A DNA stretch of 64,000 nt from a virus, in IMG/VR virus record IMGVR_UViG_3300042731_001312, positions 37,110 through 101,109 of that record. One strand, 5' to 3'. A program made the position numbers and the translations under genes. Below are positions 3,990 to 40,271 of this stretch, in pieces. The notes beneath the pieces were generated by a model that worked only from the letters and a program-made list of their open reading frames with translations, had not been told where the DNA came from and did no database searches. Each line of letters opens with the position of its first letter. Position 1 is the first letter of the stretch.

Positions 3990-3993
3990 AGGC

Positions 3994-5940: not shown

Positions 5941-5951
5941 TATTGTAAATT

Positions 5952-6758
5952 ATGAAAGATAAAATAAAAAATATACTCTCGAATAGGACTCTAGTAACAT
6001 TTATCGCTGGAGCTCTTTTCGTATTGCTATTTCTTAAACAGTGTAATCAAATATCTGAATTAAAACAAGATGTAAAATACGCACAAGAAGACGCTGGTAT
6101 TGCACTAAGTAATTTTAGAGCAGCCCAAGATTCTATTAAGATATTAGTTGATAAGAACGGTAATCAATTGGCTCAAATTAGATCTTTTACTATTGATTTA
6201 GATGATAAGAAGAATCAACTAATCAGCATGACTAATAAGTATAAGAAGGCTCTTAAATTAAACGATGAGCTTGAAGGAGTTAACGCTTTAATCTCAGCTG
6301 AGCTTGCGTTAAAAGATAGCCTATTAGCAGAAGCAACTATAACTAGAATAGACTCTACTACAGCAAAAGTTAACTTTAGTTCATTTGATGATTTCGGCAA
6401 TGGTAATACTAGATCTTTAACAGGGTCAAGCTTGATTAAATATAATTACGGTAATTTTCAAGTTACTGACAGTAAGTTTGAAATTAGAAATACCCTAAGC
6501 CTATTAGCTGCTATTGAAAATGTAGATGGTAGTGATGTACTAAAATTATCAACATCATATCCTGGTTTAGAGATTAGAGATATTGAAAATTTAAATCTAA
6601 TTAATACTAGATTAAATAGAAAAATAGAGAAAAAAGCAGGCTGGTCAATTGGTATTGGTGTGGGTTATGGTATTAACCTTAATAATAACCAAGTGATTAG
6701 CACCGGACCAAGTATTGGCTTAGGCTTATACTGGTCTCCAAAATTCTTAAGATTTTAA
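5952..6758 (+). CDS. Membrane-anchored coiled-coil protein, possible spanin-like lysis protein
   Basis: N-terminal TM (LVTFIAGALFVLLFL), coiled coil, C-terminal amphipathic beta hairpin WSIGIGVGYG...GPSIGLGLYW ending in Phe. Confidence 0.45.
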   Translation: MKDKIKNILSNRTLVTFIAGALFVLLFLKQCNQISELKQDVKYAQEDAGIALSNFRAAQDSIKILVDKNGNQLAQIRSFTIDLDDKKNQLISMTNKYKKALKLNDELEGVNALISAELALKDSLLAEATITRIDSTTAKVNFSSFDDFGNGNTRSLTGSSLIKYNYGNFQVTDSKFEIRNTLSLLAAIENVDGSDVLKLSTSYPGLEIRDIENLNLINTRLNRKIEKKAGWSIGIGVGYGINLNNNQVISTGPSIGLGLYWSPKFLRF

Positions 6759-6761
6759 AAC

Positions 6762-8831
6762 ATGGCTGAATCATCAAGATATTTCAGAATAGACCAAGAC
6801 ATTCTACTTGAGTTTATCTACCACGATCAGGCAGATCCTGAAAAGTATCGTATTGAGGTAGATGATAATGGTAGTGAGGTAATGTTCTTAGATGTGGAAC
6901 AGGGTAATCCCTTTGGGACTAGACACCTGATTCATGAGCTAGGTAGTGCAGTTGTCAACTTTGATGTAACTGAAATTTCTGGTTATCTTGCGGTTGAAAA
7001 CTTTGCTGCTAGAACTCTACTACTACAAAACGGTAAGACCTATAAATTTGATCTAAGTGCGCTGGCTAATCCGGCTGACTTTTCGATCAGCGGTAGTTTA
7101 GGTATATACTCGTACTCTGCTACAACTCAAATTGGAGAATTTACTCCTAACACAAACGGTACTGTAGATTATTCTTACCCTGGTTTAATAGGCGGTAAGA
7201 TTACGGTTGATACTAGAGCTAACCCTCTATTTGCGTCACCTGACGAAGCAACAGGAAATGATATAAACCAGACTATTGGTAGATACCATGCTGTTAATGT
7301 TCCAGGTGGGGACAAGACTAAATATGCTCTATTAGGGTATGATTCTACCGGTAATTATGAAATGCATAATTTCATTAATAATTCGTTAGAGTGGACTGGA
7401 TCTAGAGAAAACGATATGTTGAATTATCAGCAAGATGCTACTGATAATATTAATTTTATCTTATATGATACTGTAAGACTACACTTAAGATCTGGATTTT
7501 CTTTTGCTGCTAGAGGTTATGAGGGTTTCTTATTCGAGGTTAGTACTGAGAGAAATAATGCTGTTAAAAACTTTTTAACTCAATTAGTTTATCTAAATCA
7601 AAGTAACTATGAGTTCTCTAACCCAAGACCATTTATTTTAGGTGAGACTCTTTGGTCTAAATATATTAATATCAAAGTACCTTCAATTGTTGGTCAAAAC
7701 CAAGAGTTCTTAGATAGATTCTATGGAGATGGTACATTAGGTGGTAGTGATCTTAATCCATATTCTAACTATAATATTTCTTTTAAACTATTAGATCAGT
7801 TACAGACTATTAATGGTTATGATTTTGTATATACCGCAGAGGGTAATGATTTTACCGTTGCTAGAGAAGATGAATATGTTGATTTTACAGTTGTAGTGGA
7901 AGATGCTAATGACGGAGATTACTTTAAGATCTACGGAGAGAAGGATAACTCTTTAGCCGGCTTCGAGGGCCACATTCTAAATAGAATACAAACTTCTTCA
8001 GATGATATTGTAGTTATTTTCGATGTAGATGTTTTTGAGCAAATAGGAACATCTTATGTGAAAACTTCTACTAATACGTTTACCCAATACGAAGATTTTA
8101 GTACTCCTATTACGTTTAGACCTGTGATTCAAAATGCTGGTACTGCTGTTAATTTCTCGATCGACGTAACGATGAGAATTTACAACCAGACTGATAATAC
8201 TCAAATCACTAAACGAGCGTCGCTAATAACACACCAAGCAAATAAGTATGGTAAAAGATTAGCTGCTCTAAAGATTGATAATCCAAATATTTTAACAGAA
8301 GTCTATAATGTTTTACCTAGTTTAACTTCTAATAAAACTATCTCAGGGTTTATCACTGATAATTTACCTAGATCTGTAAAATACGTACCCACATTTATTG
8401 AGAGGTACAACGTAATTGCATCGGCATCTAAGGTAGAGTTATTAGGCGCAGGAACTAACGAGATGATTAAAGATGTGGAAGAGGTGGATTCTTCTGGCTT
8501 TGTAAATGAAGGAGACTTAAATATTAGTATTCCACCGTTTGCTACATATATTAAATTCGTAATAGGCAAGAAAAGAGGGGATGACTTTGAGTTAATTTCT
8601 TTTGAGAATGCCGAGCTGGTGATTTTAACCTTTAATGATGGTGCAACTAAATTGAAGTTCAACCACGTCTATAACAAAGATATTGATATGGGTAACGGTG
8701 AAGTCTTATTTAAGATTAACGAACAGAACGCTAATACAATTAGAGGCATGAAGTCTAATACATTCTATATCAGTATTGATAATGGTACAGATGAGACTAT
8801 GATTACTAAAGGAAAATTCACTAACGTATAA
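6762..8831 (+). CDS. Probable virion structural protein
   Basis: 689 aa beta-rich ORF in a late operon, coupled to the gp3-like gene. Confidence 0.45.
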   Translation: MAESSRYFRIDQDILLEFIYHDQADPEKYRIEVDDNGSEVMFLDVEQGNPFGTRHLIHELGSAVVNFDVTEISGYLAVENFAARTLLLQNGKTYKFDLSALANPADFSISGSLGIYSYSATTQIGEFTPNTNGTVDYSYPGLIGGKITVDTRANPLFASPDEATGNDINQTIGRYHAVNVPGGDKTKYALLGYDSTGNYEMHNFINNSLEWTGSRENDMLNYQQDATDNINFILYDTVRLHLRSGFSFAARGYEGFLFEVSTERNNAVKNFLTQLVYLNQSNYEFSNPRPFILGETLWSKYINIKVPSIVGQNQEFLDRFYGDGTLGGSDLNPYSNYNISFKLLDQLQTINGYDFVYTAEGNDFTVAREDEYVDFTVVVEDANDGDYFKIYGEKDNSLAGFEGHILNRIQTSSDDIVVIFDVDVFEQIGTSYVKTSTNTFTQYEDFSTPITFRPVIQNAGTAVNFSIDVTMRIYNQTDNTQITKRASLITHQANKYGKRLAALKIDNPNILTEVYNVLPSLTSNKTISGFITDNLPRSVKYVPTFIERYNVIASASKVELLGAGTNEMIKDVEEVDSSGFVNEGDLNISIPPFATYIKFVIGKKRGDDFELISFENAELVILTFNDGATKLKFNHVYNKDIDMGNGEVLFKINEQNANTIRGMKSNTFYISIDNGTDETMITKGKFTNV

Positions 8832-18774: not shown

Positions 18775-20637
18775 ATGGCATTACAGAATTTAAAAACATA
18801 TTTCGAAGGCGCTAACATATCAGACGTCGATAATCTTCTTAGCAACAAGTGTATTGTAACCGAGAAGATTGATGCATCTTCTTTTCACGTCAAAAGAGAC
18901 GGATCTGATTTTTTATTCTATAAGTCTGGCTCTAAACAAGAAATGGATCTAGTAGATCGCACGATTGTTAGATACTACGAGAATGCTATTAGATACTTTA
19001 GATCTGTATCTGAAGGCGCTGTAAAAGACATGCCATTCGACTGGAAATTTGGTTTTGATTATTTAGTAGATAATAAGACTGTTGATATTGAGTATGACAT
19101 ACTTCCAAAGTCTAATCTTATTCTAACGCATATCCAAGTTTTGCAACCATCTAATCCTACTAAGATTAGAAAGGTAATTAGAGACACTAAGGTCCTAAAT
19201 AAATGGGCAGATAAGTTAGGTGTCGCTGGACCTCCAGTTTTATTTGAGGGTCTATTAGACTCGGGCCAGAAAGATGCAATTAAAGCTCTATTGGCGATGT
19301 CAGTTAATGAGTTTGAGCAGAAATTTGAAGATAAAGATAAGCCTACATTTACTAGAAACGTCTTTGGTATTTTTAACCAGAACATGAAGCAATCAGCTTT
19401 AATGAATGACCTGTCTAAGGATGTTGCTGGCTTTATTGTTAACTTCCATGATGGAAAAGAGTTGAAGTCTTTTAAACTAGAGAAGTTTAATAAAAAACCG
19501 GCTGAAGAGAGAAAACCTTCAGACATGTATCAAATCACAATCTTAGATATTGTAGAGCACTTAACTCAATTTGACTTTGAATCAATACAACTAAAAGAAG
19601 AGCAATCAGATTTAAGATATTTAGAACTAATGTCAGGTGTTTTTAATGACTATGTCGAAAAGAATGCTACTAAATATATTGGCGCTAAATTTGATTCTGC
19701 TGACTTTTCAGAATCTCCTCTATTTGAATTAAACCACAAGTTTATTCAAAATGAAAAGACCTTAACATTAGTACAAGATAGAATCTTATCAGAGCTATTT
19801 AAAATTACATTAGGTTCTTTTAGAAAGAAGAGAAATAAAGAAACAGATATTATCAATGCCGATCTAATGAATACTATCAACGATATTGTAGAAAAGATTG
19901 AGGGTACGGTGATGGCAAAAACAAACGAAGGCGACGTTATGAATTTCAATCAATATTTATTAAACCAAAAGATTTCGGCACAAGTTAGTCCAATCACAGA
20001 GGGTTTAACTGTTAATTATCCAGAACAGGGTAGTAAGCCAGTTAACATGTTTGTTGGTAGATTCCAACCATTCACGTTAGGTCATGCTAAGGTGGTTGAA
20101 ACTATCTACAAGCAAAACGGACATCCAGTAGTTATCTTCTTAATTAAGTCTAAAACTAGAAAGGCAGAAGATGCATTTAAGAGACCTTATGATGAAGAAA
20201 CTCAAATGTCAATGTTAGACAAATTAAAGTCTAAATATCCTATTGAGAAAGTTTATATCTTAGATAGAGCAGCAATTGATCTAATGTTTAATACAATGAG
20301 AGCTGATGGCTACGAGCCAGTACTTTGGGGAACAGGAACTGATAGACTTAAGACCTATTCATACCAAGTCGATAAGCCAGAATATAGAGAAGATCTTGGA
20401 GTGAGAGATGATTTCGGTTTATTTGAAATACCAAGGACAGGTAAGAATATCTCAGCTACTCAGGTTAGAAACGCAATGTTAGATAACGACGAGAAGATGT
20501 TTAAAAAATTAACACCCAAAGGCATCCATAGTATGTATGGAGAATTAAAAACTAAATTAGAGGATTCAATGGGAGTAGTTGCGGAGTCATCGCAACCAGA
20601 GTTCTTAACCTTCGAAGCCTTTTTGAAGAATATATAA
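18775..20637 (+). CDS. Fusion of a degenerate RNA-ligase-like domain and a HIGH-family (cytidylyl/adenylyl)transferase
   Basis: IVTEKIDASSF at the N-terminus; GRFQPFTLGH, GTDR and ISATQVR in the C-terminal third. Confidence 0.75.
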   Translation: MALQNLKTYFEGANISDVDNLLSNKCIVTEKIDASSFHVKRDGSDFLFYKSGSKQEMDLVDRTIVRYYENAIRYFRSVSEGAVKDMPFDWKFGFDYLVDNKTVDIEYDILPKSNLILTHIQVLQPSNPTKIRKVIRDTKVLNKWADKLGVAGPPVLFEGLLDSGQKDAIKALLAMSVNEFEQKFEDKDKPTFTRNVFGIFNQNMKQSALMNDLSKDVAGFIVNFHDGKELKSFKLEKFNKKPAEERKPSDMYQITILDIVEHLTQFDFESIQLKEEQSDLRYLELMSGVFNDYVEKNATKYIGAKFDSADFSESPLFELNHKFIQNEKTLTLVQDRILSELFKITLGSFRKKRNKETDIINADLMNTINDIVEKIEGTVMAKTNEGDVMNFNQYLLNQKISAQVSPITEGLTVNYPEQGSKPVNMFVGRFQPFTLGHAKVVETIYKQNGHPVVIFLIKSKTRKAEDAFKRPYDEETQMSMLDKLKSKYPIEKVYILDRAAIDLMFNTMRADGYEPVLWGTGTDRLKTYSYQVDKPEYREDLGVRDDFGLFEIPRTGKNISATQVRNAMLDNDEKMFKKLTPKGIHSMYGELKTKLEDSMGVVAESSQPEFLTFEAFLKNI

Positions 20638-25946: not shown

Positions 25947-25963
25947 AACTGTTCAATATTTAG

Positions 25964-25994
25964 GGCCGTTCACTCACAATGAACGGCCTTTTTT
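25964..25994 (+). terminator. Intrinsic terminator
   Basis: ggccgttca-ctcacaa-tgaacggcc-tttttt. Confidence 0.85.
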
Positions 25995-25997
25995 ATT

Positions 25998-26026
25998 GAA
26001 ACAAACTAGCACTTTCGTACTATAAT
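25998..26026 (+). promoter_or_regulatory. Middle-type promoter (modification cluster)
   Basis: GAAAC-N18-TATAAT. Confidence 0.7.
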
Positions 26027-26043
26027 TAATAAATCTATTTTAT

Positions 26044-26376
26044 ATGAGCAATATTCTAGAACAAGCAGACAAAATTATTAACCACAGATCAGAAGAGAAA
26101 GAACGTATGTATGGTCCTTTTGAAGAGGGCATGCGTCGTGCAGCAATGATCTGTTCTGGCATGACAGGCAAAGAGTGGACCGGATCCGATATGTATGCAG
26201 CACTCGTCGCACTTAAATTAAGCAGACATTCTTACAACTATAAAGAAGATAATCTTCTAGATGCGGTCGCATATATTGGCGGCCTAGATAATTACATTAA
26301 GAAGTATGGCTACGGTGAAACCGAAAAGCCAATTAATTTAACTGATGCCGACGCTGGATATGGAGACAAACAATAA
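26044..26376 (+). CDS. DUF6378-like all-alpha protein (nucleotide-modification associated)
   Basis: ILEQADKII..R...YGP...LVALKLSR....KEDNLLDAVAY. Confidence 0.7.
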   Translation: MSNILEQADKIINHRSEEKERMYGPFEEGMRRAAMICSGMTGKEWTGSDMYAALVALKLSRHSYNYKEDNLLDAVAYIGGLDNYIKKYGYGETEKPINLTDADAGYGDKQ

Positions 26377-27436
26377 CCTGGTCTATTTTACGGACTTAGA
26401 GAAGGATAATAATATTCGAATAGGTATTTCTGCGTTAGTTGGAAAACTAAGCAGTAAATTAACTTCACATAAATCAGGTTGGGCATTCCATTTAGCAAAT
26501 CAGCTAAAGCATGCCGGCTATCAAAATGTTCAAGTACTTACAGATAACACACCATGGGACGTAACAAGATTCGATGTAATCTTAATCGAGCACGGTATGG
26601 AATTCAAAGGCAATTTTAATATCTTCGGTGGGGCGAACGATGACTTGTACCATCAAATCACTAGAATGTTCGCTCCCGGTATACGCATGTATTCGCTCCA
26701 CCACGATATGCCTTGTGTAGGTACTCTAATTGAAAAGCGCCTAAAGACAGGTTCAGATCTTTTTAAAACACTTGAAGTACAAATAAAAGACGCTAAATCA
26801 ATTTGTGCTAGAATTCCTAGAGTAGATAGAATCCAAAAGACAGATAAACTTTGCTTTGGAGATTCACATTCATTTAGCCAGTATACTCCGGGTTATATGA
26901 CTGATCGCCATGATGGCTTAACTCTATTCGGTACTTTAAGAAGAGGTATTCGCTCTTATGTGCCAGAGGAAATTAATGCACTACGCATCTATCTAGGGAA
27001 TATAGATATAAGACACCACTTAATGAGACAAGATAATCCATCTAAGTCTCTAAAAGATATGTTGGCTAATTATGAACAACAGTTGATAGATTTAGAAATA
27101 AGTGATATTGAAGTGGTTCAGGCCCTACCTATCGAAAACGAGTCTAGACCGTTACCAAAAACAGGTTACTACAAAGGTACTCCTTTTGCAGGTACTTGGG
27201 CGGAAAGAACTGCATTGGTAAAAGAGTTTAACCAAATAGTAGAAGAAATGTGTAATAGAAACGGCTGGAAAACGTGGCAACACCCTGCAGTCTTTTTAAA
27301 CTCATTTGGTGAGTTAACATTTGACGTAATGGAAAAGCCTAAGTCAGTACATATTGCACGAGAATATTATCGTTGGGATTTAGAGCGTGACGAGCCCAAT
27401 AAGAGATTACAACCAGTTACGCAAGCTTTATTTTAG
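26360..27436 (+). CDS. Two-domain protein with C-terminal SGNH/GDSL-like domain
   Basis: Block I FGDSHS, block III-like LGNIDIR, block V-like KSVH; ends TQALF. Confidence 0.55.
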   Translation: METNNNLVYFTDLEKDNNIRIGISALVGKLSSKLTSHKSGWAFHLANQLKHAGYQNVQVLTDNTPWDVTRFDVILIEHGMEFKGNFNIFGGANDDLYHQITRMFAPGIRMYSLHHDMPCVGTLIEKRLKTGSDLFKTLEVQIKDAKSICARIPRVDRIQKTDKLCFGDSHSFSQYTPGYMTDRHDGLTLFGTLRRGIRSYVPEEINALRIYLGNIDIRHHLMRQDNPSKSLKDMLANYEQQLIDLEISDIEVVQALPIENESRPLPKTGYYKGTPFAGTWAERTALVKEFNQIVEEMCNRNGWKTWQHPAVFLNSFGELTFDVMEKPKSVHIAREYYRWDLERDEPNKRLQPVTQALF

Positions 27437-27439
27437 TAT

Positions 27440-27601
27440 ATGAAAAAGTATGATATTTTAATTACGCCATTAGAGAGAACTGGCGGTAGAACTGACGCAC
27501 CATATCAAATCCAACTAGAGACTGATAATATTGATTGGTCCATGGAACAATATCAAAGAAACAGACCTGCTCTAGACTGGAAGATTGTAAATGAAGATTA
27601 A
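27440..27601 (+). CDS. 53-aa hypothetical protein (absent from ORF track)
   Basis: MKKYDILITPLERTGGRTDAPYQIQLETDNIDWSMEQYQRNRPALDWKIVNED; fills the gap and overlaps the next start. Confidence 0.7.
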   Translation: MKKYDILITPLERTGGRTDAPYQIQLETDNIDWSMEQYQRNRPALDWKIVNED

Positions 27602-28808
27602 GACAACCAAATATTACGACGAATTTATTCGTTACTACGAATTGGCATTAGACCAGCAAAAGAAGTCTAATCTAGGCCATATTCCACATGCACAATCCGA
27701 TATGCAAGATCCTCTGATGGAGCACATTGAGTTGTATGATGTAGTTGAAAGAAAATTCGCAGGTTTTAGCCAGATCGTTAACGATTGCTTTTATGGTTGG
27801 ACTCCTGAGCACCCGTATTGGTCTAGGATGCAGGCCGGTTTAGTAACAGAGCAGAGAAAAGAGGTTGCCACTAATTGGACTGGTAAGCAAGAAGTATTCG
27901 GCCTACCAGAATGGCTGTACCTATTCATACTACACAGAGTCTGTGGTTCTGCAATCAACTATGCCACGAAGCCTAGCGGCTACCACAACACACTTCTGTT
28001 TGATCTGTGGCAATCCGATACAATAGAGCAAATGTGTGAGCAGGTAAAAGCAGCTACTAAATCTTTTTATACATCAGTAGGTTATCAATTTCCCGCTTTC
28101 CCAAAACCCCCACAACCAGAGGCTAACGAAGATGTTTTTGTTGGCATGTCGGGCTTTGAGGCACCTCAGTTTCAATATAAGAGAGGCGGCGATTATTTCC
28201 TGTGTGAATTTGCACCACGCCTAGCCAGAGATATGGCTAACTATTTAGAAGAGGGTGGTAAGAAAGATTTAAGGGAATTGGGTCAATGGATGTTTGACTG
28301 GAATAAAGCAAATGGATTAAGAGCGTATAAATTCCAATATGCAGCAGTTTTAGCAGATGTCGCAGATTGGTTCCCTGAGTACATCAATAAGGAGTCAATG
28401 TTTTATTATGGCACAAATGCTGTAGAATGTATTGGCTATCTAGCAGATCCAGTAGAGGGTAAAGGTAAAAAGTCTGAGCCATTCCTAGATGCAGTAATGA
28501 CTAAGATTTATGAGCAAACAGGTAGTTTACCATATAATGCTGAGGATGTTGCATGTGACTTTATTAGATGGATCGAAAATTACATGAGACCTGGTGCTGA
28601 CTATGCACATATTGATATGGATAATTTATGGAACTCTTCCACTATCTTAGACCATCCTTATGGTAGACAGAAGGCAATGTTAGACCTAGGTCTAGTAGAA
28701 ACATTTAACGGAATGAAACACCACCCATCAGATGATAAAATCATAGCAGAAGCTGGAATTACAGTAGAAGAATATAAAAAAAGAGTAGCACAGATTTATG
28801 GCACATAA
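27591..28808 (+). CDS. aGPT-Pplase-like (HhH-glycosylase-related helical) DNA hypermodification protein
   Basis: DPLM..IELYDVVER, YLFILHR, FQY..VLAD, YYGTNAVECI, NAEDVACDFIRW parallel the DP.L...F.NV.R / GPGA..G / E..LCEFDKY pattern of aGPT-Pplase1; adjacent to a PLP enzyme. Confidence 0.55.
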   Translation: MKIKTTKYYDEFIRYYELALDQQKKSNLGHIPHAQSDMQDPLMEHIELYDVVERKFAGFSQIVNDCFYGWTPEHPYWSRMQAGLVTEQRKEVATNWTGKQEVFGLPEWLYLFILHRVCGSAINYATKPSGYHNTLLFDLWQSDTIEQMCEQVKAATKSFYTSVGYQFPAFPKPPQPEANEDVFVGMSGFEAPQFQYKRGGDYFLCEFAPRLARDMANYLEEGGKKDLRELGQWMFDWNKANGLRAYKFQYAAVLADVADWFPEYINKESMFYYGTNAVECIGYLADPVEGKGKKSEPFLDAVMTKIYEQTGSLPYNAEDVACDFIRWIENYMRPGADYAHIDMDNLWNSSTILDHPYGRQKAMLDLGLVETFNGMKHHPSDDKIIAEAGITVEEYKKRVAQIYGT

Positions 28809-29694
28809 TAAACACACAGACTTATTAATTAATCAAGATCTAAATTTAATGATGCCTAATAGACAGGCGTGGTTAGATTTAGCCGGTGATTGGGTAGATC
28901 CTTTTCCAGCACCTGAAATCCACGAGCATAATGGATTCAATGTGGTTAGAGAAGATCTAATGGGCTTTGGTTCTAAATGTAGATTTGGTGACATCTTAGT
29001 ACAAACATGTCCTAAAGACACATTGGTATACGTACAGCCTAGATATGGTTTTGCAGGTATTTCACTTGCGTATCTAGCAAAGAAGTATAATAAAAGACTT
29101 GTTCTTTTTAGCCCAAGTCAAAAAGAGATTTCAGACCATCAGGCTATTTGTGTGGAAAGAGGTGCAGAGATGAAATTTAAGAGGATTGCAGCAATGCCAG
29201 TATTAAATGCACATGCAAAACAATGGGCTGAAGATAACGATGCATTTTTTATTCCACTCGGACTTCGCCATGAACTGGTTACAGCAGCCGCTGTGAAGGT
29301 GGCATACGATCTTGCAGAGAAACATGGTTATCCAGAAGAAGTATGGTCAGCAATATCCACAGGCGTTCTATCTCGAGCTCTACAGATAGCTTGGCCTGAT
29401 GCTCAGTTTAACGGAGTTGCTGTTGCAAGAAATATTCAAAAGGGCGAGAGAGGTAGAGCACAACTCTGGTCACATCCTAAAGCATTCACACAAAACGTAG
29501 ATCCAGAATACTATCCGCCATTTCCATCAGCGTTAAACTATGACGCCAAGGCTTGGGAATTTATGGTAAAACACGGTAATCCTGGTGCGTGGTTCTGGAA
29601 TGTTGGAGGTGACCCAAAACCTGAAAACGAGAATACAAAATTGTTAACAAATTCCGAAAGAGCTTGGGGTGAAGTCCTTGAAACAGATAGGTAA
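28798..29694 (+). CDS. PLP-dependent enzyme (fold type II) of the kind found in phage thymidine-hypermodification clusters
   Basis: VVREDLMGFGSKCR (PLP lysine), SAISTGVL, YDAKAW, FWNVG. Confidence 0.75.
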   Translation: MAHNKHTDLLINQDLNLMMPNRQAWLDLAGDWVDPFPAPEIHEHNGFNVVREDLMGFGSKCRFGDILVQTCPKDTLVYVQPRYGFAGISLAYLAKKYNKRLVLFSPSQKEISDHQAICVERGAEMKFKRIAAMPVLNAHAKQWAEDNDAFFIPLGLRHELVTAAAVKVAYDLAEKHGYPEEVWSAISTGVLSRALQIAWPDAQFNGVAVARNIQKGERGRAQLWSHPKAFTQNVDPEYYPPFPSALNYDAKAWEFMVKHGNPGAWFWNVGGDPKPENENTKLLTNSERAWGEVLETDR

Positions 29695-29707
29695 TTTTAA
29701 CTATAAC
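29680..29707 (+). promoter_or_regulatory. Middle-type promoter (gp56-FkbM-gp43A)
   Basis: GAAAC-N17-TATAAC. Confidence 0.65.
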
Positions 29708-29722
29708 AAACAAATTAGAAAT

Positions 29723-30187
29723 ATGGCAAACGCAGATAACAAATGTGCAGATCTAGAGGTTACAGACTTCTACGACACAGACAATGACACGCTAGGTTTA
29801 ATTTACAACAAACAAATTGAATTGCAAAAAAGATTAGGGTTTGACTTTACAGGTTGGACCTTAAAAGAGATTGCTGACTTTTGGTGTGTAAATAAACATG
29901 CAATGTCAGATGAATTAAATGAAATGTTTGATGCCCTTGGAGGTATCAACGATGGTATCGGTTCAGCAGCATGGAAGTACTGGAAAGGTACTCATAAAGA
30001 GGCTGCTAACATGAAGATAGAAGATCTATCTGAAGAAGACCGACTAGAATTATTCTACGAATGGATTGATGGCCTACACTTCTATATGAATTTTGCAATT
30101 TCTATCGGTATGTCCGCTAAAGATATTGTTAACTTATATATGGCCAAGAACGCAGAGAATCACGATCGCCAAAACCGCGGATATTAA
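29723..30187 (+). CDS. gp56: Dimeric all-alpha dUTPase/dCTPase (T4 gp56-like)
   Basis: DELNEM, WKYWK, EWIDGLHF, YMAKNAENHDRQNRGY. Confidence 0.88.
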   Translation: MANADNKCADLEVTDFYDTDNDTLGLIYNKQIELQKRLGFDFTGWTLKEIADFWCVNKHAMSDELNEMFDALGGINDGIGSAAWKYWKGTHKEAANMKIEDLSEEDRLELFYEWIDGLHFYMNFAISIGMSAKDIVNLYMAKNAENHDRQNRGY

Positions 30188-30768
30188 TGGCAAAGAACTT
30201 TATTGAAATAGGTTCTTGTTATTTTAACACGTTAGAATACTTATCTGATCGAGGTTGGAATGGTATTGTAGTAGAGCCCCAAAAAGAGATATTTGATGTT
30301 ATCAACGGTAGGTTTGATAATGTGCAATATTTTAACGCGGCTATTGCTAATGAGAATGGAGAGGCCGATCTTTGGAAGTTTAATAAAGAATGGACCGACG
30401 AAGATCCGGACTATCATGGTATGGCTTCTCTATTCCATCCATCTGAAAAGATCACCTATGATACCCATACTGCTGAATATATTGCTGAAAATGTACACGC
30501 AGAACGAGTTGAAACAATGACCTATGCACGTCTATTAGAATTAGCAAAGCCTGATACGGTAGATCTGCTAAAAATAGACACCGAGGGATTTGACTACGAA
30601 ATCATAAAACAAGTACAATTTACAGGAGCACTCAGACCTAGGATTATTATGGCAGAACATAAACATACTCCTGGTAAAGTGCTTGAAGAATTTTTAATCT
30701 ATAAAGGTTATCATGTAGAAGTGGAACAAGATAATCTTTATGCAATCGATATTAATAGATGCTTTTAG
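30187..30768 (+). CDS. FkbM-family SAM-dependent methyltransferase
   Basis: FIEIGS, VVEP, LLKIDTEGFDYEII. Confidence 0.88.
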   Translation: MAKNFIEIGSCYFNTLEYLSDRGWNGIVVEPQKEIFDVINGRFDNVQYFNAAIANENGEADLWKFNKEWTDEDPDYHGMASLFHPSEKITYDTHTAEYIAENVHAERVETMTYARLLELAKPDTVDLLKIDTEGFDYEIIKQVQFTGALRPRIIMAEHKHTPGKVLEEFLIYKGYHVEVEQDNLYAIDINRCF

Positions 30769-32165
30769 ATATTGAACAAAGAGATAAAGAGGTAATCGTA
30801 TCTTATTACGATAAAGAGGGTCAAGTTTCATTTAAGAGATATAATATCGATAAGTTCCAGAATTGGGTTGTCGCAAAAGATGATGATCGTTGGAAAGATG
30901 CCACTGTTAAAAACTGGGACGGGCGCCATATTAAGAAGTCAATATCAAAATCTTTTAATAAGTTTTCGTTATTGTATTTTATGGATGGTTTACCACAGAA
31001 AGACCAAGATGAGATCTTTGAGTTCAATATGCCACGTACATATTTTGTCGATATTGAAACTGAGATTGTCGATGGCTTTCCTAAACCTGAAGAGGCTAAG
31101 TCTAGAATCTTAACCTTTTCCATTATCACACCCGAAAGAAAAGCAATTGTATTAGGTCTTGAAGATCTTTCGGCCGATCAAATTAAGAAGATCGAAGATG
31201 ATACGAACAATCACTTTACTGGATATGACCAGGACTGGGAATTTAGTTATTACAAATTCAAGAGTGAATATGACATGGTCTATTCATTCTTGCACAAGTT
31301 TTTACCTAAGTTTCCCATGATGACGGGTTGGAACTTTATCAACTATGACTGGCAGTATATAGTTAATCGATGTAAGATATTACAGATTGATTTAACAGAA
31401 GTTGCATGTACTGGTGCATTAGATAAAAAAGACTCGAGACCACTACACATGGGTATTCTAGACTATATGCAATTGTATGATAAATACGATCGTTCGGTTG
31501 CTGTAAAAGAATCGAATTCACTAGATTTCGTTTCCGGCGCAGTTCTAGAAGGTATAAGTAAAATTAAATATAGCGGTAGCCTACAAGACCTATATGAAAA
31601 TGACTTTCAAAAGTATGTTTTCTATAATGTAGTCGACTCCTGTCTAGTTTATTACATCGATCAAAAACTCAGATCGATGGAAGTGCTATTGACTTTAGCA
31701 ACAATAACTAGAATGCCGTTATATAAAGCCGCTTCGCCAGTGGCTGTTACTGAATCTCTGATCGCTAGAAAGCTTACCGAGCAGGGTAAACGTATTGGTG
31801 TAGAATACGACAGAGAAGACAGTAAGAAAGACAGCAAATATGAAGGTGCTTTCGTTAAAGATCCTGTGGTTGGGTATTATGGTGGTGTATCTGCATTTGA
31901 CTTCGCGTCACTATACCCCTCAATTATGAGACAATTTAATATCTCGCCGGACTCGTTTGTTGAAATGGTCGAAGAATCACAAATAGCGGAGCGTAGAAAA
32001 GACGACTCAGTTATTGTCTGTGAAAATGGAGTTGTGTACAAGAAGGAAGATAGTATTCTTAAAAAAATTCTAAGCGATCTTTATGCCCAAAGAAAAGAAT
32101 ACAAGAAGACTTCTTATCAATATTTTGAAAAAGCACATGAGTTAACAAAAAAATTTAATCTATAA
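30759..32165 (+). CDS. gp43A: Family B DNA polymerase, N-terminal subunit (exonuclease, motif A, first fingers helix)
   Basis: ExoI DIETE, ExoII GWNFINYDW, ExoIII YNVVD, YEGAFV, DFASLYPS; stops after QRKEYKK with no motif B or C. Confidence 0.93.
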   Translation: MLLDIEQRDKEVIVSYYDKEGQVSFKRYNIDKFQNWVVAKDDDRWKDATVKNWDGRHIKKSISKSFNKFSLLYFMDGLPQKDQDEIFEFNMPRTYFVDIETEIVDGFPKPEEAKSRILTFSIITPERKAIVLGLEDLSADQIKKIEDDTNNHFTGYDQDWEFSYYKFKSEYDMVYSFLHKFLPKFPMMTGWNFINYDWQYIVNRCKILQIDLTEVACTGALDKKDSRPLHMGILDYMQLYDKYDRSVAVKESNSLDFVSGAVLEGISKIKYSGSLQDLYENDFQKYVFYNVVDSCLVYYIDQKLRSMEVLLTLATITRMPLYKAASPVAVTESLIARKLTEQGKRIGVEYDREDSKKDSKYEGAFVKDPVVGYYGGVSAFDFASLYPSIMRQFNISPDSFVEMVEESQIAERRKDDSVIVCENGVVYKKEDSILKKILSDLYAQRKEYKKTSYQYFEKAHELTKKFNL

Positions 32166-36273: not shown

Positions 36274-37482
36274 ATGGATGTAACCACACTTACTGAGAAA
36301 CCAATCGATCAACTTAGTAGAGAAGAGGCAGAGCTGCTTGTAAATCATTACAAGCAGTTATCTGCTAAATATACTGCGTATGAACAAGCTGTAAAATTAA
36401 CTCTTAACTCTATCTACGGCGCATTTGGTAATAAGTGGTTTCATTTCTTTAATATTAACATTGCAGAGTCTATTACAAAGCAGGGTAAAAATGCTATCCT
36501 TTACTCTGAGGCAATACTTAATAAGTATGTTAAAGAGTTTTGGCATAAAGATACTGCAGTACACCAGAACTTCGGTATTAGAGTAAAGGGTAAAGTTGAA
36601 AAACCAGCAGTAATCTATATCGACACGGACTCATGTTATGTGCAGTTTCAAGATTTATATGAAACTATCATTTGGGAAGACGATGATAAAAAATTATCAA
36701 TCGATGAATTTATTTTAGCATTTTATGCATTTAGACTTAAAGACTATATCACTGCGTGTATGCAAAAATATGCCGACTCTAGAAATACGGATAATTTCTT
36801 AGTATTTGAATTAGAGTCACTTGCATATAATGGCATTTGGATGTCCAAGAAGAAGTATATTCAGAATATCGCATGGGATGATAAACTTGAAGTAACAGAT
36901 CGACACCCATCATTGAAGAAGGTAAAAACGATCGGTTTTGATACAATCCAATCTTCTACTCCTAAGTTTGCTAGAGAGAAATTAGTTGAAGCACTTAAAA
37001 TTTTATTTAAGTCTGGTAAAACACCAGGTGCAGATGAATTACAAGAGCTGGTTAGTTTTATGAAGAAATCTAAGAAAGAATTTCAACTTGCAGATACAGA
37101 CGATATTGCATTTAATCGTAGAACTAATAATATTGAAAAATATATTGTTGACGACCAAATTGAATTTCAAGTAGGTCTAAAATGTCCAGCCAATGTAAAG
37201 GCTGCCGGCTACTATAACTATGTATTAAATCAAAATAGCAAGTATAAAAACAAATACAAAGTGATCGGTAACGGCGAGAAGCTAAAAATCTACAATTGTA
37301 AAACTCCGATCTCAGAAGTTTATGCTTATCTACCAGGAGAACATCCCTATGAAATTGCACCACCAATAGACTATGATACACAATTTGAAAAGTGTATGAT
37401 TGACCCTCTTAACAGGGTATTGAAAGCAATCGGACTACAAACATTAGACACTAATCTAATCTATGCATCAGCATTATTTTAA
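36274..37482 (+). CDS. gp43B: Family B DNA polymerase, C-terminal subunit (motifs B and C, thumb)
   Basis: KLTLNSIYGAFGN, AESITKQG, YIDTDS, KKKY, QSSTP, IDYDTQFEK. Confidence 0.93.
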   Translation: MDVTTLTEKPIDQLSREEAELLVNHYKQLSAKYTAYEQAVKLTLNSIYGAFGNKWFHFFNINIAESITKQGKNAILYSEAILNKYVKEFWHKDTAVHQNFGIRVKGKVEKPAVIYIDTDSCYVQFQDLYETIIWEDDDKKLSIDEFILAFYAFRLKDYITACMQKYADSRNTDNFLVFELESLAYNGIWMSKKKYIQNIAWDDKLEVTDRHPSLKKVKTIGFDTIQSSTPKFAREKLVEALKILFKSGKTPGADELQELVSFMKKSKKEFQLADTDDIAFNRRTNNIEKYIVDDQIEFQVGLKCPANVKAAGYYNYVLNQNSKYKNKYKVIGNGEKLKIYNCKTPISEVYAYLPGEHPYEIAPPIDYDTQFEKCMIDPLNRVLKAIGLQTLDTNLIYASALF

Positions 37483-37487
37483 TAATT

Positions 37488-37691
37488 ATGAAAGATAATA
37501 AATTTACAAAAATCATGAAGTTAGTAGAACAATACCCTAACGACATGGAACTAGGCGAAAAGATAAGAGAGATTTACTGGAATAACAGAAAGGTTGAAGA
37601 TCCTAATCAGTTAAAGATTGAATTTCCAGTAGATCCTGTACATATTACAGATGCAGATATTGAATCTTTTGCTGCAAGATCAGAAGATTAA
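37488..37691 (+). CDS. Hypothetical protein
   Basis: 67-aa ORF with YPNDMELGEKIR; tightly packed. Confidence 0.65.
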   Translation: MKDNKFTKIMKLVEQYPNDMELGEKIREIYWNNRKVEDPNQLKIEFPVDPVHITDADIESFAARSED

Positions 37692-37692
37692 T

Positions 37693-38070
37693 ATGGAAGA
37701 TTCTATAAAATCAAAGATGGTATTACACCAAACGGACGTTAGACCGTGGGGTGAATATGAAGTCTTATTAGACTCAGATGATTGTAAAGTTAAAAAAATT
37801 ACAGTTGCGCCTGGACAAAGACTTTCGTACCAGTACCATGAAAACAGAAGAGAGCAATGGGTTGTCGTTAACGGACAATTAACTGTAGTACTAAACGGAA
37901 GGGACGTGGTACTCAATCCAGGTATGACTCTTTCTATCCACATTGGTGATAAGCACCGAGCGTGGAATAAAACAGATTCTCCAGTAGAATTTATTGAAGT
38001 ACAAACAGGAACGTATTTTGGAGAGGATGACATCATAAGAATAGAAGATGACTATGGCAGACAAGATTAA
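37693..38070 (+). CDS. Cupin, mannose-6-phosphate isomerase type II C-terminal-like
   Basis: RPWGEY, LSYQYHENRREQW, HRAWN, FIEVQTG.YFGEDDIIRIEDDYGR. Confidence 0.9.
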   Translation: MEDSIKSKMVLHQTDVRPWGEYEVLLDSDDCKVKKITVAPGQRLSYQYHENRREQWVVVNGQLTVVLNGRDVVLNPGMTLSIHIGDKHRAWNKTDSPVEFIEVQTGTYFGEDDIIRIEDDYGRQD

Positions 38071-39410: not shown

Positions 39411-39696
39411 AGATAAGCTGCCGATCAAGTATATCCTAGGGATAGAAAAAGATCTACCGGATTATCCTACCGCACTAGATGTTTTATACGCTGAAGTAAA
39501 ACTGTGTAATAGAAACCCAGAAAGATATAAGGGTAGTTTTACCTACCATGCACTAAAGACCTACCGCTTTCCAGAATCAGACCACGATCGAATATTACAG
39601 TCTGCAAAAGAGCTGGTTAATTTAGGTCTTTGTGAACAAACAAATGATGAAGCTGGAAAAGAGGCTTTTAAAATCCTAATTAATCCATTCGAATGA
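39397..39696 (+). CDS. Hypothetical protein
   Basis: 99-aa ORF, GTG start, overlaps both neighbours. Confidence 0.6.
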   Translation: MKLNKDKLPIKYILGIEKDLPDYPTALDVLYAEVKLCNRNPERYKGSFTYHALKTYRFPESDHDRILQSAKELVNLGLCEQTNDEAGKEAFKILINPFE

Positions 39697-40271
39697 TAGC
39701 AGTATTTGACAATTTTATTAAAGACCCCGAGTTACTACAAGAGATAGAGACAAACTATAACTATATCTTTAGAGAGCCTGGTGTCTATAAGTGGTGGAAT
39801 GGTTGGTGGAATACAGAAGCCAACAATACTACAAAAAAGATAATTCAATATGTATGGGGTGAACATTGCCCTATCGCAGATGGGTTTTCAATTGATGGCT
39901 TTGAATACTGGACTGGAATTCAAACTGCGGCCGATATAGAAGATGATTGGAAAGATAATCTACAGATTCATTTCGATAAGGATGAAGCGTGGTGGCAAAA
40001 GACAAAAGAAGTGGTAAGTCCCGTGATAGGTAGCGTATATTACCCAGCGGGCCAGGACTTTGATGGAGGGGATCTTGCAATATACACAGATGGCCGAGAT
40101 TCGACCCCAGAGATTGTGAAAGCAAAACCTAATAGATTTATTATCTTTCAGGCAGGACAAGACCTGCACACAGTACAACAAGTCACACGAGGTGTTAGAA
40201 ACGCTATCGCAATTAATCTATGGGAAAATGAACCCTACTCTAAACAAGTTGGCGAGTTAACCATAGAATAA
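39693..40271 (+). CDS. 2OG-Fe(II) oxygenase
   Basis: HFD, FDGGDL, HTV, RNAIAINLW. Confidence 0.88.
   Translation: MIAVFDNFIKDPELLQEIETNYNYIFREPGVYKWWNGWWNTEANNTTKKIIQYVWGEHCPIADGFSIDGFEYWTGIQTAADIEDDWKDNLQIHFDKDEAWWQKTKEVVSPVIGSVYYPAGQDFDGGDLAIYTDGRDSTPEIVKAKPNRFIIFQAGQDLHTVQQVTRGVRNAIAINLWENEPYSKQVGELTIE

What the first reader, a model, noticed from the sequence alone, without database searches (positions are those of the whole stretch)
25998..30768. Candidate new DNA base-hypermodification pathway: DUF6378 + SGNH-like + aGPT-Pplase-like + PLP enzyme + dUTPase/dCTPase + FkbM, running into the polymerase
Seen: seven tightly packed genes behind a replication-class promoter, ending on gp43A. 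Known: thymidine hypermodification in ViI, M6, PaMx11 and PhiW-14 uses aGPT-Pplase/amino-acid:DNA-transferase helical proteins on activated 5-hmdU, and ViI and M6 add a fold-II PLP enzyme; gp56-type pyrophosphatases remove the competing pyrimidine nucleotide. Inference: this cassette makes an amino-acid-derived base. It has no evident P-loop 5-hmdU kinase or hydroxymethylase in the window, and it has an SGNH-like (acyltransferase/esterase-fold) protein, which I do not know from characterised pathways. The chemistry, or even the target base, may therefore be new. FkbM may be a passenger.
Basis: partly seen in the sequence, partly recalled or inferred. Interest (0 to 1): 0.88.

Follow-up and report, generated by a model that had tools for sequence, protein, structure and literature searches.

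The report
Kinase-less hydroxymethylcytosine DNA hypermodification cassette
Just upstream of its DNA polymerase, this uncultured marine T4-like phage carries distant relatives of the enzymes that attach amino acids to thymine in other phages' DNA, but the set lacks the usual DNA kinase and in related phages is tied to hydroxymethylcytosine, so the DNA probably carries a decorated cytosine that I found described in no paper.

Summary
Seven packed + strand genes (26044-30768) follow a terminator and a promoter-like site and run into the N-half of a split B-family polymerase. The family calls were mostly right.

- The 405-aa protein (g4) has the fold of PaMx11 gp46, an amino acid:DNA transferase (Z 10.3). 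Its viral look-alikes are ADDT, aGPT-Pplase and 5-hmdU-kinase helical-domain proteins.
- The 298-aa protein (g5) is a fold-II PLP enzyme related to M6 gp52. Its Schiff-base lysine is invariant.
- The 363-aa protein (g2) has an intact SGNH domain behind a possibly T4 beta-glucosyltransferase-like N-domain.
- g6 is a T4 gp56 (dCTPase) homologue.
- FkbM is a passenger, absent from all 80 related loci.

The proposed target base is probably wrong. No 5-hmdU kinase or dUMP hydroxymethylase appears in this contig (about 33% complete) or in five relatives' contigs, two of them complete. Those relatives make dTMP normally and encode gp42-type dCMP hydroxymethylases. In a second lineage that gene lies beside g4 in 32 of 35 informative loci.

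g2 and g4 occur fused. The C-terminal tail of g2 co-varies with the polymerase's clamp-binding tail. Cultured Aeromonas phages such as 44RR2.8t carry a g2 fusion, gene 42 and no glucosyltransferase.

The chemistry is unknown. This scan has reported the same cassette in at least 12 other genomes.

The parts
25962..26023 (+). Intrinsic terminator-like hairpin (25962-25990) followed by a sigma-70-like promoter site (25996-26023). Together they head the cassette.
   Evidence: Consensus scan and sequence read. Function is not shown.
26044..26376 (+). g1, 110 aa, DUF6378 protein. It heads the cassette in the window's lineage and is absent from the second lineage.
   Evidence: Pfam PF19905, E 1.1e-9. 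Present at 79-99% identity in nearly all loci L003-L041 (absent from L024/L025) and in none of L042-L082. No PDB sequence match. Role unknown.
26345..27436 (+). g2, 363 aa. It has three parts: an N-domain (~1-160) that may be related to the N-domain of T4 beta-glucosyltransferase, an SGNH-fold domain (~165-350), and a C-terminal ...QALF tail like that of the polymerase.
   Evidence: - AF2 model pLDDT 89.
- SGNH fold: Foldseek E 2e-5, prob 1.0; VIA Z 12.9 to 2hsj and Z 10-11 to the O-acetyltransferases PatB and OatA.
- S174 (GDSH), N219 (GNID) and H336 are invariant in 26 sequences.
- N-domain profile against T4 b-gt: E 3e-5 in a one-target search; hhalign prob 52%.
- Found fused to g4-like domains.
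- Tail co-varies with the polymerase tail.
27440..27601 (+). g3, a 53-aa ORF of unknown role, kept only in the closest relatives.
   Evidence: No Pfam or PHROG hit. tblastn finds it at 48-72% identity in most of L003-L015 and in L026-L032 only.
27591..28808 (+). g4, 405 aa, a helical protein of the aGPT-Pplase / amino acid:DNA transferase / HMUDK-helical superfamily. It is the core of the cassette.
   Evidence: - AF2 model pLDDT 94.7.
- Best solved match is 8z2n, PaMx11 gp46/PUGT: Z 10.3, rmsd 3.9, 213 residues aligned.
- BFVD hits: ADDT-domain proteins (E 6e-41 and 5.5e-4), Pplase1, and 5-hmdU-kinase helical domains at prob 0.94-0.99.
- One of 60 family members hits PF18724 at E 1e-3 and one hits PF18723 at E 0.01.
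- 927 metagenomic homologues.
- Invariant residues include E318 and C322.
28798..29694 (+). g5, 298 aa, fold-type II PLP enzyme related to the DNA-acting PLP decarboxylase M6 gp52.
   Evidence: - PALP E 8e-5, below the cut-off; phrog_7093 E 9e-42.
- Family profile hits M6 gp52 at E 1.4e-12. M6 gene identities checked by Pfam.
- K60 (GSKCR) is invariant in 20 sequences and aligns with the PLP lysine motif of cysteine synthases.
29669..30187 (+). g6, 172 aa from GTG (more likely 154 aa from the ATG at 29723). Homologue of the T4 gp56 dCTPase-dUTPase.
   Evidence: tblastn finds 1413 phage records, 36-50% identical, annotated dCTPase or dCTP pyrophosphatase, including T6. Pfam dUTPase_2 and phrog_173. 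Adjacent to the polymerase gene in most relatives of the window's lineage that reach it.
30187..30768 (+). g7, 193 aa, FkbM-family methyltransferase. It is an insertion peculiar to this phage.
   Evidence: PF05050 E 9e-16 and TIGR01444. No homologue in any of 80 related loci, where g6 abuts the polymerase gene.
30759..32165 (+). N-half of the split B-family DNA polymerase, the downstream boundary of the cassette.
   Evidence: DNA_pol_B_exo1 and DNA_pol_B. The C-half lies at 36274-37482 and ends ...SALF.

Best explanation
The cassette is a post-replicative DNA hypermodification module of a T4-like phage that most probably decorates 5-hydroxymethylcytosine (5-hmC), not thymine.

**Proposed sequence of events (inferred from gene families and context; only those are shown).**
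1. The gp56-like g6 and a gp42-type dCMP hydroxymethylase, encoded elsewhere in the genome, feed hm-dCTP to the split polymerase.
2. On the new DNA, g2 is held at the sliding clamp by a polymerase-like C-terminal tail. Its glucosyltransferase-like N-domain presents the 5-CH2OH group of a flipped-out hmC to the SGNH Ser-His centre, which acylates it. This step takes the place of the ATP-dependent 5-hmdU DNA kinase of the thymidine pathways.
3. g4, a distant relative of amino acid:DNA transferases, flips the base out and replaces the activated ester with an amino acid.
4. g5, a fold-II PLP enzyme like M6 gp52 and ViI gp226, trims the appended amino acid, probably by decarboxylation. That would leave an amine-bearing C5 side chain on cytosine.

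The roles of g1 and g3 are unknown. g7 (FkbM) is an add-on peculiar to this phage.
For: **g4 belongs to the transferase superfamily.**
- Fold match to PaMx11 gp46 and to viral ADDT, Pplase1 and HMUDK_hel proteins.
- Weak Pfam hits of family members to ADDT and HMUDK_hel.
- Its invariant E318-D-x-x-C322 has the spacing of E243-T-x-x-C247, which binds the base in PUGT (PMC11472151).
- gX, a second gene between g4 and g5 in many relatives, is a g4 paralogue (E 4e-8).

**g5 is a PLP enzyme of the DNA-acting kind.** Its profile hits M6 gp52 at E 1.4e-12 and the lysine is invariant.

**g2 looks catalytically intact and works with g4.**
- Intact SGNH residues.
- N-domain resembles the T4 b-gt N-domain.
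- g2::g4 fusion proteins exist.
- The g4-g5-g2 trio is conserved across two lineages.

**g2 has a polymerase-like tail.** The g2 and polymerase tails change together: QALF/SALF, AALF/TALF, MSLF/TSLF, SLESFI/STLEDWFA. 44RR ORF233c ends SLDGLFAI, compared with SLDFLFG in T4 gp43.

**The link to cytosine.**
- A gp42 homologue, 58-65% identical to T4 gp42, lies about 1.5 kb upstream of g4 in 32 of 35 informative second-lineage loci.
- Closer relatives G001 (complete) and G004 also have a gp42-type gene with Asp at E. coli ThyA positions 143, 169 and 177. That is the 5hm-dCMP signature of PMC13326640.
- dTMP is made normally, by ThyA or ThyX.
- No HMUDK is found anywhere.

**A cultured parallel.** Aeromonas phage 44RR2.8t has gene 42 (55% identical to T4 gp42) and a g2-helical fusion. 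Petrov et al. 2010 list it among phages with genes 42 and 56 and no glucosyltransferase.
Against: - The window's own contig has no ThyA-like gene. It is only about 33% complete, so the hmC link for this phage rests on relatives.
- gp56 homologues also occur in T4 relatives without gene 42 (PMC2993671, Table 4). g6 alone is therefore not diagnostic.
- g4 does not hit Pfam ADDT itself, and profile-profile comparison with the gp46 clade is not significant.
- Z 10 is within the range that helical proteins can reach by chance.
- The E-x-x-x-C correspondence was not checked on a structural superposition.
- The beta-glucosyltransferase likeness of the g2 N-domain is weak: 10.5 bits, hhalign prob 52%.
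- No acyl donor is identified. SGNH enzymes are more often hydrolases than transferases.
- No chemistry was measured.
Confidence: 0.6

Rival explanations
1. One reading: the cassette hypermodifies thymidine. 5-hmdU in DNA would be activated and then given an amino acid by g4, with g5 trimming it.
For: All characterised aGPT-Pplase/ADDT enzymes and the PLP decarboxylases M6 gp52 and ViI gp226 act on 5-hmdU derivatives (PMC8989533). A dCMP deaminase lies between the gp42 homologue and g4 in L055 and could in principle turn hm-dCMP into hm-dUMP.
Against: There is no dUMP hydroxymethylase, no 5-HMUDK and no Tet_JBP hit in this contig or in five relatives' contigs, two of them complete (the Tet_JBP control was silent). 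The relatives' ThyA-like extra copy has Asp, not Asn, at the base-specificity position. An ordinary ThyA or ThyX is present.
Confidence: 0.12
2. The pathway acts on free nucleotides before replication, or on RNA, rather than on polymerised DNA. g2, g4 and g5 would build a modified dCMP or dCTP derivative that the polymerase then incorporates.
For: The cassette sits among nucleotide-pool genes (g6, ribonucleotide reductase). The 5hmC carbamoyltransferase of PMC8670742 also works on hm-dCTP.
Against: g4 has the base-flipping, glycosylase-like fold of a DNA-bound enzyme. g5's relatives act on DNA. g2 carries a tail that co-varies with the polymerase's clamp-binding tail.
Confidence: 0.1
3. g4 is not a transferase but a DNA glycosylase or a mere base-recognition module, for example one that excises or guards unmodified or foreign cytosine. 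g2 would be an esterase, and no amino acid would be attached.
For: Apart from PUGT, g4's next-best solved folds include OGG/AGOG/MutY-type glycosylases at Z about 8. One family member and 44RR ORF233c hit the kinase helical domain rather than ADDT. Aeromonas phages have the g2 fusion but no g5.
Against: The viral look-alikes are ADDT, Pplase1 and HMUDK_hel proteins, not glycosylases. The tight and widespread linkage with a PLP enzyme related to M6 gp52 is best explained by an amino-acid adduct.
Confidence: 0.12
4. The genes are unrelated neighbours in an early operon and do not form one pathway.
For: g1, g3 and g7 come and go between lineages.
Against: g4, g5 and g2 stay together at 28-63% identity with changed order. 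g2 and g4 are fused in several proteins.
Confidence: 0.03

Closest known systems
Thymidine hypermodification pathways of phages M6, ViI, PaMx11, PhiW-14 and SP10 (dUMP hydroxymethylase, 5-HMUDK kinase, aGPT-Pplase/AADT of Pfam ADDT, PLP decarboxylase or FAD lyase)
   Same: Both have a hydroxymethyl-pyrimidine precursor made by a ThyA homologue. g4 and gX are helical glycosylase-fold enzymes with PaMx11 gp46 as the best structural match. g5 is a fold-II PLP enzyme related to M6 gp52. In both, the cluster lies in the replication region; in PaMx11 it sits between the ribonucleotide reductase and polymerase genes.
   Different: There is no P-loop 5-hmdU DNA kinase and no dUMP hydroxymethylase. The linked ThyA homologue is the dCMP-specific gp42 type. 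A beta-glucosyltransferase-like/SGNH hybrid with a clamp-type tail stands in for the activating partner and is sometimes fused to g4. g4 is too far from Pfam ADDT to hit the model.
T4 hydroxymethylcytosine pathway (gp56 dCTPase, gp42 dCMP hydroxymethylase, alpha/beta-glucosyltransferases)
   Same: It has a gp56 homologue in the cassette and gp42 homologues in relatives (up to 65% identical to T4 gp42). The modification genes lie beside the polymerase gene, as genes 42 and b-gt do in T4. The N-domain of g2 may derive from the b-gt N-domain.
   Different: No glucosyltransferase is present. The UDP-glucose-binding half is replaced by an SGNH domain. The decoration is predicted to be acyl- or amino-acid-derived rather than a sugar, although the L040 lineage adds a GT2 and a UDP-galactopyranose mutase.
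Other 5-substituted cytosine routes: 5hmC carbamoyltransferase (PMC8670742) and arabinosyl-5-hydroxycytosine of RB69/DLP3 (PMC13326640)
   Same: These are also phage pathways that start from a ThyA-homologue product on dCMP and decorate it further.
   Different: There is no carbamoyltransferase here. The ThyA homologues keep Asp169, the 5hm type, rather than Asn169, the 5ho type. The enzyme set is entirely different.
SGNH O-acetyltransferases and esterases (PatB, OatA C-domain, sialate O-acetylesterase)
   Same: Same fold, and the same Ser/Gly/Asn/His catalytic set, in the C-domain of g2.
   Different: Those enzymes act on cell-wall or glycan hydroxyls outside the cytoplasm. I found no SGNH enzyme described as acting on DNA.

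Membership tests
Amino acid:DNA transferase / aGPT-Pplase (Pfam PF18724 ADDT) - g4 | Significant match to the family profile | tested here: not met
   g4 has no Pfam hit at E <= 0.01 and none at E <= 10 in the contig. Only 1 of 60 family members reaches E 1e-3. hhalign against the gp46 clade is not significant.
Amino acid:DNA transferase / aGPT-Pplase (Pfam PF18724 ADDT) - g4 | Two-helical-bundle, glycosylase-like fold of PaMx11 gp46 (PUGT) | tested here: met
   8z2n is the best solved match: Z 10.3, rmsd 3.9, 213 of 289 residues. BFVD hits to ADDT, Pplase1 and HMUDK_hel proteins have prob 0.94-1.0.
Amino acid:DNA transferase / aGPT-Pplase (Pfam PF18724 ADDT) - g4 | Base-binding residues E243/T244/C247 of PUGT | tested here: inconclusive
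   g4 has invariant E318 and C322 with the same spacing (E-D-V-A-C), and gX has E-D-K-T-C. No residue-level structural superposition was available.
Amino acid:DNA transferase / aGPT-Pplase (Pfam PF18724 ADDT) - g4 | Works downstream of a 5-hmdU DNA kinase (PF18748 + PF18723) | tested here: not met
   PF18723 is absent from this contig and from five relatives' contigs, two of them complete. PF18748 is absent from this contig.
Amino acid:DNA transferase / aGPT-Pplase (Pfam PF18724 ADDT) - g4 | Transfers an amino acid or polyamine to an activated 5-methylene of a pyrimidine in DNA | not testable with these tools
   This needs an enzyme assay.
DNA-acting fold-II PLP decarboxylases (M6 gp52 / ViI gp226) - g5 | Sequence relationship to M6 gp52 and the PALP superfamily | tested here: met
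   The g5 family profile hits M6 gp52 at E 1.4e-12 in a search of M6 and PaMx11 ORFs. PALP is E 8e-5, below the Pfam cut-off.
DNA-acting fold-II PLP decarboxylases (M6 gp52 / ViI gp226) - g5 | Schiff-base lysine | tested here: met
   K60 is invariant in 20 sequences and aligned with the S-x-K-x-R lysine of cysteine synthases.
DNA-acting fold-II PLP decarboxylases (M6 gp52 / ViI gp226) - g5 | Decarboxylates an amino acid tethered to DNA | not testable with these tools
   This needs an enzyme assay.
SGNH/GDSL hydrolase-acyltransferase superfamily - g2 C-domain | Fold plus the Ser (GDS), Gly, Asn (GxND) and His catalytic set | tested here: met
   Foldseek E 2e-5, prob 1.0. VIA Z up to 12.9. G172-D-S174-H, G218-N219-I-D and H336 are invariant.
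T4 beta-glucosyltransferase N-terminal (acceptor) domain - g2 N-domain | Sequence or fold relationship to T4 b-gt residues ~1-165 | tested here: inconclusive
   The N-domain profile against T4 b-gt gives E 3e-5 and 10.5 bits in a one-target search. It aligns the shared ...N-x-F-G-G and Y-x-L-x-x-D blocks. hhalign prob is 52%. The profile search of PDB sequences gave nothing, and the N-domain was not folded alone.
T4 gp56 dCTPase-dUTPase - g6 | Homology to gp56 | tested here: met
   36-50% identity to proteins annotated dCTPase or gene 56 in 1413 phage records. Activity was not tested.
T4-type hmC DNA (gp42 dCMP hydroxymethylase present) | ThyA homologue with catalytic Cys and Asp at E. coli ThyA positions 143, 169 and 177 | tested here: inconclusive
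   Not found in this 101-kb contig, which is about 33% complete. Found in relatives G001, G003 and G004 and in 32 of 35 informative second-lineage loci.
FkbM methyltransferase - g7 | Match above the curated cut-off | tested here: met
   PF05050 scores 58.9 bits against a cut-off of 22.7. TIGR01444 scores 46.3 against 37.7.

The most novel reading that the evidence does not exclude
Widespread marine and freshwater T4-like phages, and the cultured Aeromonas phages 44RR2.8t, 31 and 25, replace the glucosylation of 5-hmC by a new chemistry. A clamp-riding hybrid of a glucosyltransferase acceptor domain and an SGNH acyltransferase O-acylates 5-hmC in DNA without ATP. AADT-like enzymes then swap the ester for an amino acid, and a PLP enzyme decarboxylates it. 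The result would be an undescribed amine-bearing cytosine. This would answer the question left open in 2010: what protects hmC DNA in T4 relatives that lack glucosyltransferases?
Probability: 0.4. Interest if true: 0.9.

Novelty: new variant of a known kind. Interest (0 to 1): 0.8.

Why it matters
- All characterised amino acid:DNA transferases work on thymine derivatives and need a dedicated DNA kinase. A kinase-less version aimed at hydroxymethylcytosine would add a new base to the list of natural DNA modifications. It would also add a new way to activate a nucleobase hydroxymethyl group.
- The family is abundant: 927 clusters at 90% identity, and contigs up to 256 kb.
- Such DNA would escape, or attract, restriction and glycosylase defences, and it would bias sequencing of environmental viromes.
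- The enzymes could become tools for labelling 5-hmC.
- The link to the cultured Aeromonas phages 44RR2.8t, 31 and 25 makes the idea testable at the bench now.

Tried and rejected
- **g4 by sequence.** Nucleotide and tblastn searches of the phage collection found nothing. Pfam, PHROGs, NCBIfam and PDB sequence searches also gave nothing.
- **g4 against the gp46 clade.** A gp46-clade HMM and hhalign against the g4 family were not significant. The tie to ADDT therefore rests on structure and on weak hits of single family members.
- **Foldseek of g4 against PDB.** On its own it was weak, with best E 0.5.
- **g2 N-domain.** The protein atlas and a profile search of PDB sequences gave nothing. The wide structural search was filled by SGNH matches.
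- **Pathway genes searched for.** ThyA, ThyX, ADDT, HMUDK_hel and the HMUDK P-loop are absent from this contig. The Tet_JBP search of relatives was negative, but its control rang nowhere, so it is uninformative.
- **g6 as proof of cytosine replacement.** I rejected this, because gp56 homologues also occur in T4 relatives without gene 42.
- **5-hydroxycytosine.** I considered it as the precursor, as in RB69, and rejected it. The relatives' ThyA homologues keep Asp169.
- **Literature.** Searches found no paper describing this enzyme set.

Full report
**1. What is there**

The window is the last 64 kb of a 101-kb IMG/VR virus contig rated about 33% complete. Around the finding lies a T4-like replication module:
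- UvsW;
- a split B-family polymerase (30759-32165 and 36274-37482), with ribonucleotide reductase genes between the halves;
- UvsX, a gp41-like helicase and gp46/47-like nucleases.

A strong terminator-like hairpin (25962-25990) and a sigma-70-like site (25996-26023) precede seven + strand genes. Their ends overlap or abut, and they run into the polymerase gene.

**2. The genes one by one**

*g1 (110 aa).* A DUF6378 protein.

*g2 (363 aa).* It has no Pfam match but matches two PHROGs of unknown function. One of these, phrog_17781, is 795 positions long and is matched only over its first ~335.
- An AlphaFold model built on 26 sequences has pLDDT 89.
- Residues ~165-350 are an SGNH fold. Foldseek gives E 2e-5 at probability 1.0. 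VIA gives Z 12.9 to 2hsj and Z 10-11 to the peptidoglycan O-acetyltransferases PatB and OatA.
- The Ser of GDSH, the Asn of GNID and a C-terminal His are invariant.
- The N-domain gave nothing in general searches. Following a lead from earlier notes of this scan, I compared its profile with T4 beta-glucosyltransferase. The one-target search gave E 3e-5, aligning the N-x-F-G-G and Y-x-L-x-x-D blocks. hhalign gave probability 52%. I treat this as suggestive only.

*g4 (405 aa).* It has no sequence match to any curated family or solved structure, yet it has 927 metagenomic homologues at 90% clustering.
- Its model is excellent (pLDDT 94.7).
- The best solved match is PaMx11 gp46/PUGT, the glycine:DNA transferase: Z 10.3, rmsd 3.9, 213 residues. 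HhH-type glycosylases come next at Z about 8. The PUGT authors found the same glycosylase likeness for their own structure (PMC11472151).
- Against predicted viral structures, the top ten hits other than unnamed ones are ADDT-domain proteins, Pplase1 proteins and 5-hmdU-kinase helical domains of phiRSL1, SP10 and PhiW-14, at probability 0.94-1.0.
- One family member hits Pfam ADDT at E 1e-3 and another hits HMUDK_hel at E 0.01.
- Profile-profile comparison with the gp46 clade fails.

I therefore file g4 in the superfamily, not in Pfam ADDT. Its invariant E318-D-V-A-C322 has the spacing of PUGT's E243-T-x-x-C247. In PUGT those residues hold the metal at thymine O4 and clamp the base. That correspondence is my inference, not a superposition.

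*g5 (298 aa).* A fold-II PLP enzyme.
- PALP is below the cut-off.
- Its family profile finds M6 gp52 at E 1.4e-12. M6 gp52 is an experimentally shown PLP decarboxylase of DNA-bound glycine (PMC8989533). I checked the M6 neighbours by Pfam.
- The Schiff-base lysine is invariant.

*g6.* A homologue of T4 gp56.

*g7.* An FkbM methyltransferase, present in none of 80 related loci. In those loci g6 abuts the polymerase gene.

**3. Linkage**

Eighty IMG/VR loci hold a g4 homologue.
- Close relatives keep g1-g2-(g3)-g4-g5-g6-polymerase.
- A second lineage, at 59-63% g4 identity, keeps g4-gX-g5-g2.
- gX also occurs between g4 and g5 in some closer relatives. It is a paralogue of g4 (profile E 4e-8) with the same E-D-x-x-C block. 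It is absent from this contig.
- Several proteins in the 50%-clustered library fuse a g2-like N-part to a g4-like C-part. This is the same architecture as the P-loop plus helical-domain 5-hmdU kinase.
- The L040 lineage inserts a GT2 glycosyltransferase and a UDP-galactopyranose mutase into the cassette.

**4. Which base?**

No PF00303, ThyX, ADDT, HMUDK_hel or HMUDK P-loop hit exists in this contig. In five relatives' contigs, two of them complete, HMUDK_hel is absent as well. Those relatives do carry the following:
- an ordinary ThyA (Leu143 kept) or a ThyX;
- a second, divergent ThyA homologue.

The divergent copy has the catalytic Cys and has Asp at the positions of E. coli L143, D169 and N177. 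By the rules set out in PMC13326640 that is a 5-hydroxymethyl-dCMP synthase. It is not a dUMP enzyme (which has Asn177) and not a 5-hydroxy-dCMP synthase (which has Asn169).

In the second lineage this gene is 58-65% identical to T4 gp42. It lies about 1.5 kb upstream of g4 in 32 of the 35 loci that have enough upstream DNA. A dCMP deaminase lies between them. The most economical reading is that these phages make normal T and replace C by 5-hmC, and that the cassette works on 5-hmC.

For this window's own phage this is an inference. In relative G004 the gp42-type gene lies about 90 kb from the cassette. That distance would fall off this contig. gp56 homologues are not diagnostic on their own (PMC2993671, Table 4).

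**5. Action on DNA**

The C-terminal tail of g2 changes in step with the C-terminal tail of the polymerase:

| Phage or lineage | g2 tail | Polymerase tail |
|---|---|---|
| this window | QALF | SALF |
| G004 | AALF | TALF |
| G001 | MSLF | TSLF |
| second lineage | SLESFI or TLEDFFA | STLEDWFA |

In T4 and RB69 the polymerase tail is the peptide that binds the gp45 clamp; this is my recollection of the literature and was not checked here. T4 gp43 ends SLDFLFG. It also argues for post-replicative action on DNA.

**6. A cultured handle**

g2 homologues occur in 43 phage records, 38 of them Aeromonas T4-like phages. The findings in 44RR2.8t are as follows:
- The gene is a 795-aa fusion, ORF233c. 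Its C-part weakly hits HMUDK_hel (E 0.004), and it ends SLDGLFAI.
- The phage has a gp42 homologue, 55% identical to T4 gp42, with the Asp/Asp/Asp signature.
- Petrov et al. 2010 listed 44RR, 31 and 25 among phages with genes 42 and 56 but no glucosyltransferase. They asked whether such phages modify Hm-dCMP in another way.
- No g5 homologue was found in any Aeromonas phage record. The PLP step is therefore an optional tailoring step.

**7. Mechanism, comparison and verdict**

*Shown:* the families, the folds, the conserved catalytic residues, the linkage, the fusions, and the co-occurrence with gp42-type genes.

*Inferred:* g2 acylates the hydroxymethyl group of flipped-out 5-hmC. g4, and gX where present, replaces the ester with an amino acid. 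g5 decarboxylates that amino acid.

The closest known systems are the thymidine hypermodification pathways. This cassette differs from them in target base, in lacking the kinase, and in the g2 partner. I found no paper describing it. Earlier follow-ups in this scan reached the same reading for the same cassette in at least 12 other genomes. I reached mine from my own tests before reading theirs, except for the glucosyltransferase lead and the clamp-tail lead.

I rate it a new variant of a known kind and of high interest. The chemistry is unproven.

Noticed in passing
window 30759-32165 and 36274-37482: The B-family DNA polymerase is split into two genes about 4 kb apart. Both ribonucleotide reductase subunits and a 247-aa ORF without a family lie between the halves. 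Second-lineage relative G003 has an unsplit 839-aa polymerase.
   Followed up: partly
L100 (Aeromonas phage 44RR2.8t, NC_005135.1) 3441-7421: ORF233c (795 aa) joins a g2-like module to a helical C-part that weakly hits HMUDK_hel. It sits next to a phage-encoded sodium:solute symporter (SSF, E 6e-53), which might import the donor substrate.
   Followed up: partly
L040 13143-15423 (256-kb complete IMG/VR genome): A GT2 glycosyltransferase and a UDP-galactopyranose mutase are inserted between g5 and g6. This lineage may therefore add galactofuranose as well.
   Followed up: no
L055 7246-15271 (167-kb IMG/VR genome): Gene order: PRA-PH/MazG-like pyrophosphatase, gp42 homologue, dCMP deaminase, a weak UDG-superfamily protein, g4, gX, g5, g2, then a C5 cytosine DNA methylase homologue. 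The role of a C5 methylase in a phage predicted to lack plain cytosine is unexplained.
   Followed up: no
L001 (Erythrobacter phage vB_EliS_R6L gp1) and L002 6013-6723 (Microcystis phage Mae-JY30): These are the only cultured-phage relatives of g5. One is a PALP domain fused to an N6/N4 DNA methylase, near a PAPS reductase. The other is a stand-alone copy behind two ParB genes. Both are a second, independent DNA-modification context for this PLP clade.
   Followed up: partly
window 29669-29723: The g6 ORF as listed starts at GTG 29669, inside g5. Relatives align only from about residue 19 onward, so the ATG at 29723 is the likelier start.
   Followed up: partly
window 18775-20637: A 620-aa protein has an NMN-adenylyltransferase-like cytidylyltransferase domain at residues 425-531. 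It lies in a block that other notes of this scan read as capsid-packaged polyproteins.
   Followed up: no
window 37651-38070 and 39693-40271: A cupin / mannose-6-phosphate isomerase C-domain protein and a small 2OG-Fe(II) oxygenase lie between the polymerase C-half, UvsX and the gp41-like helicase. No link to the cassette was tested.
   Followed up: no
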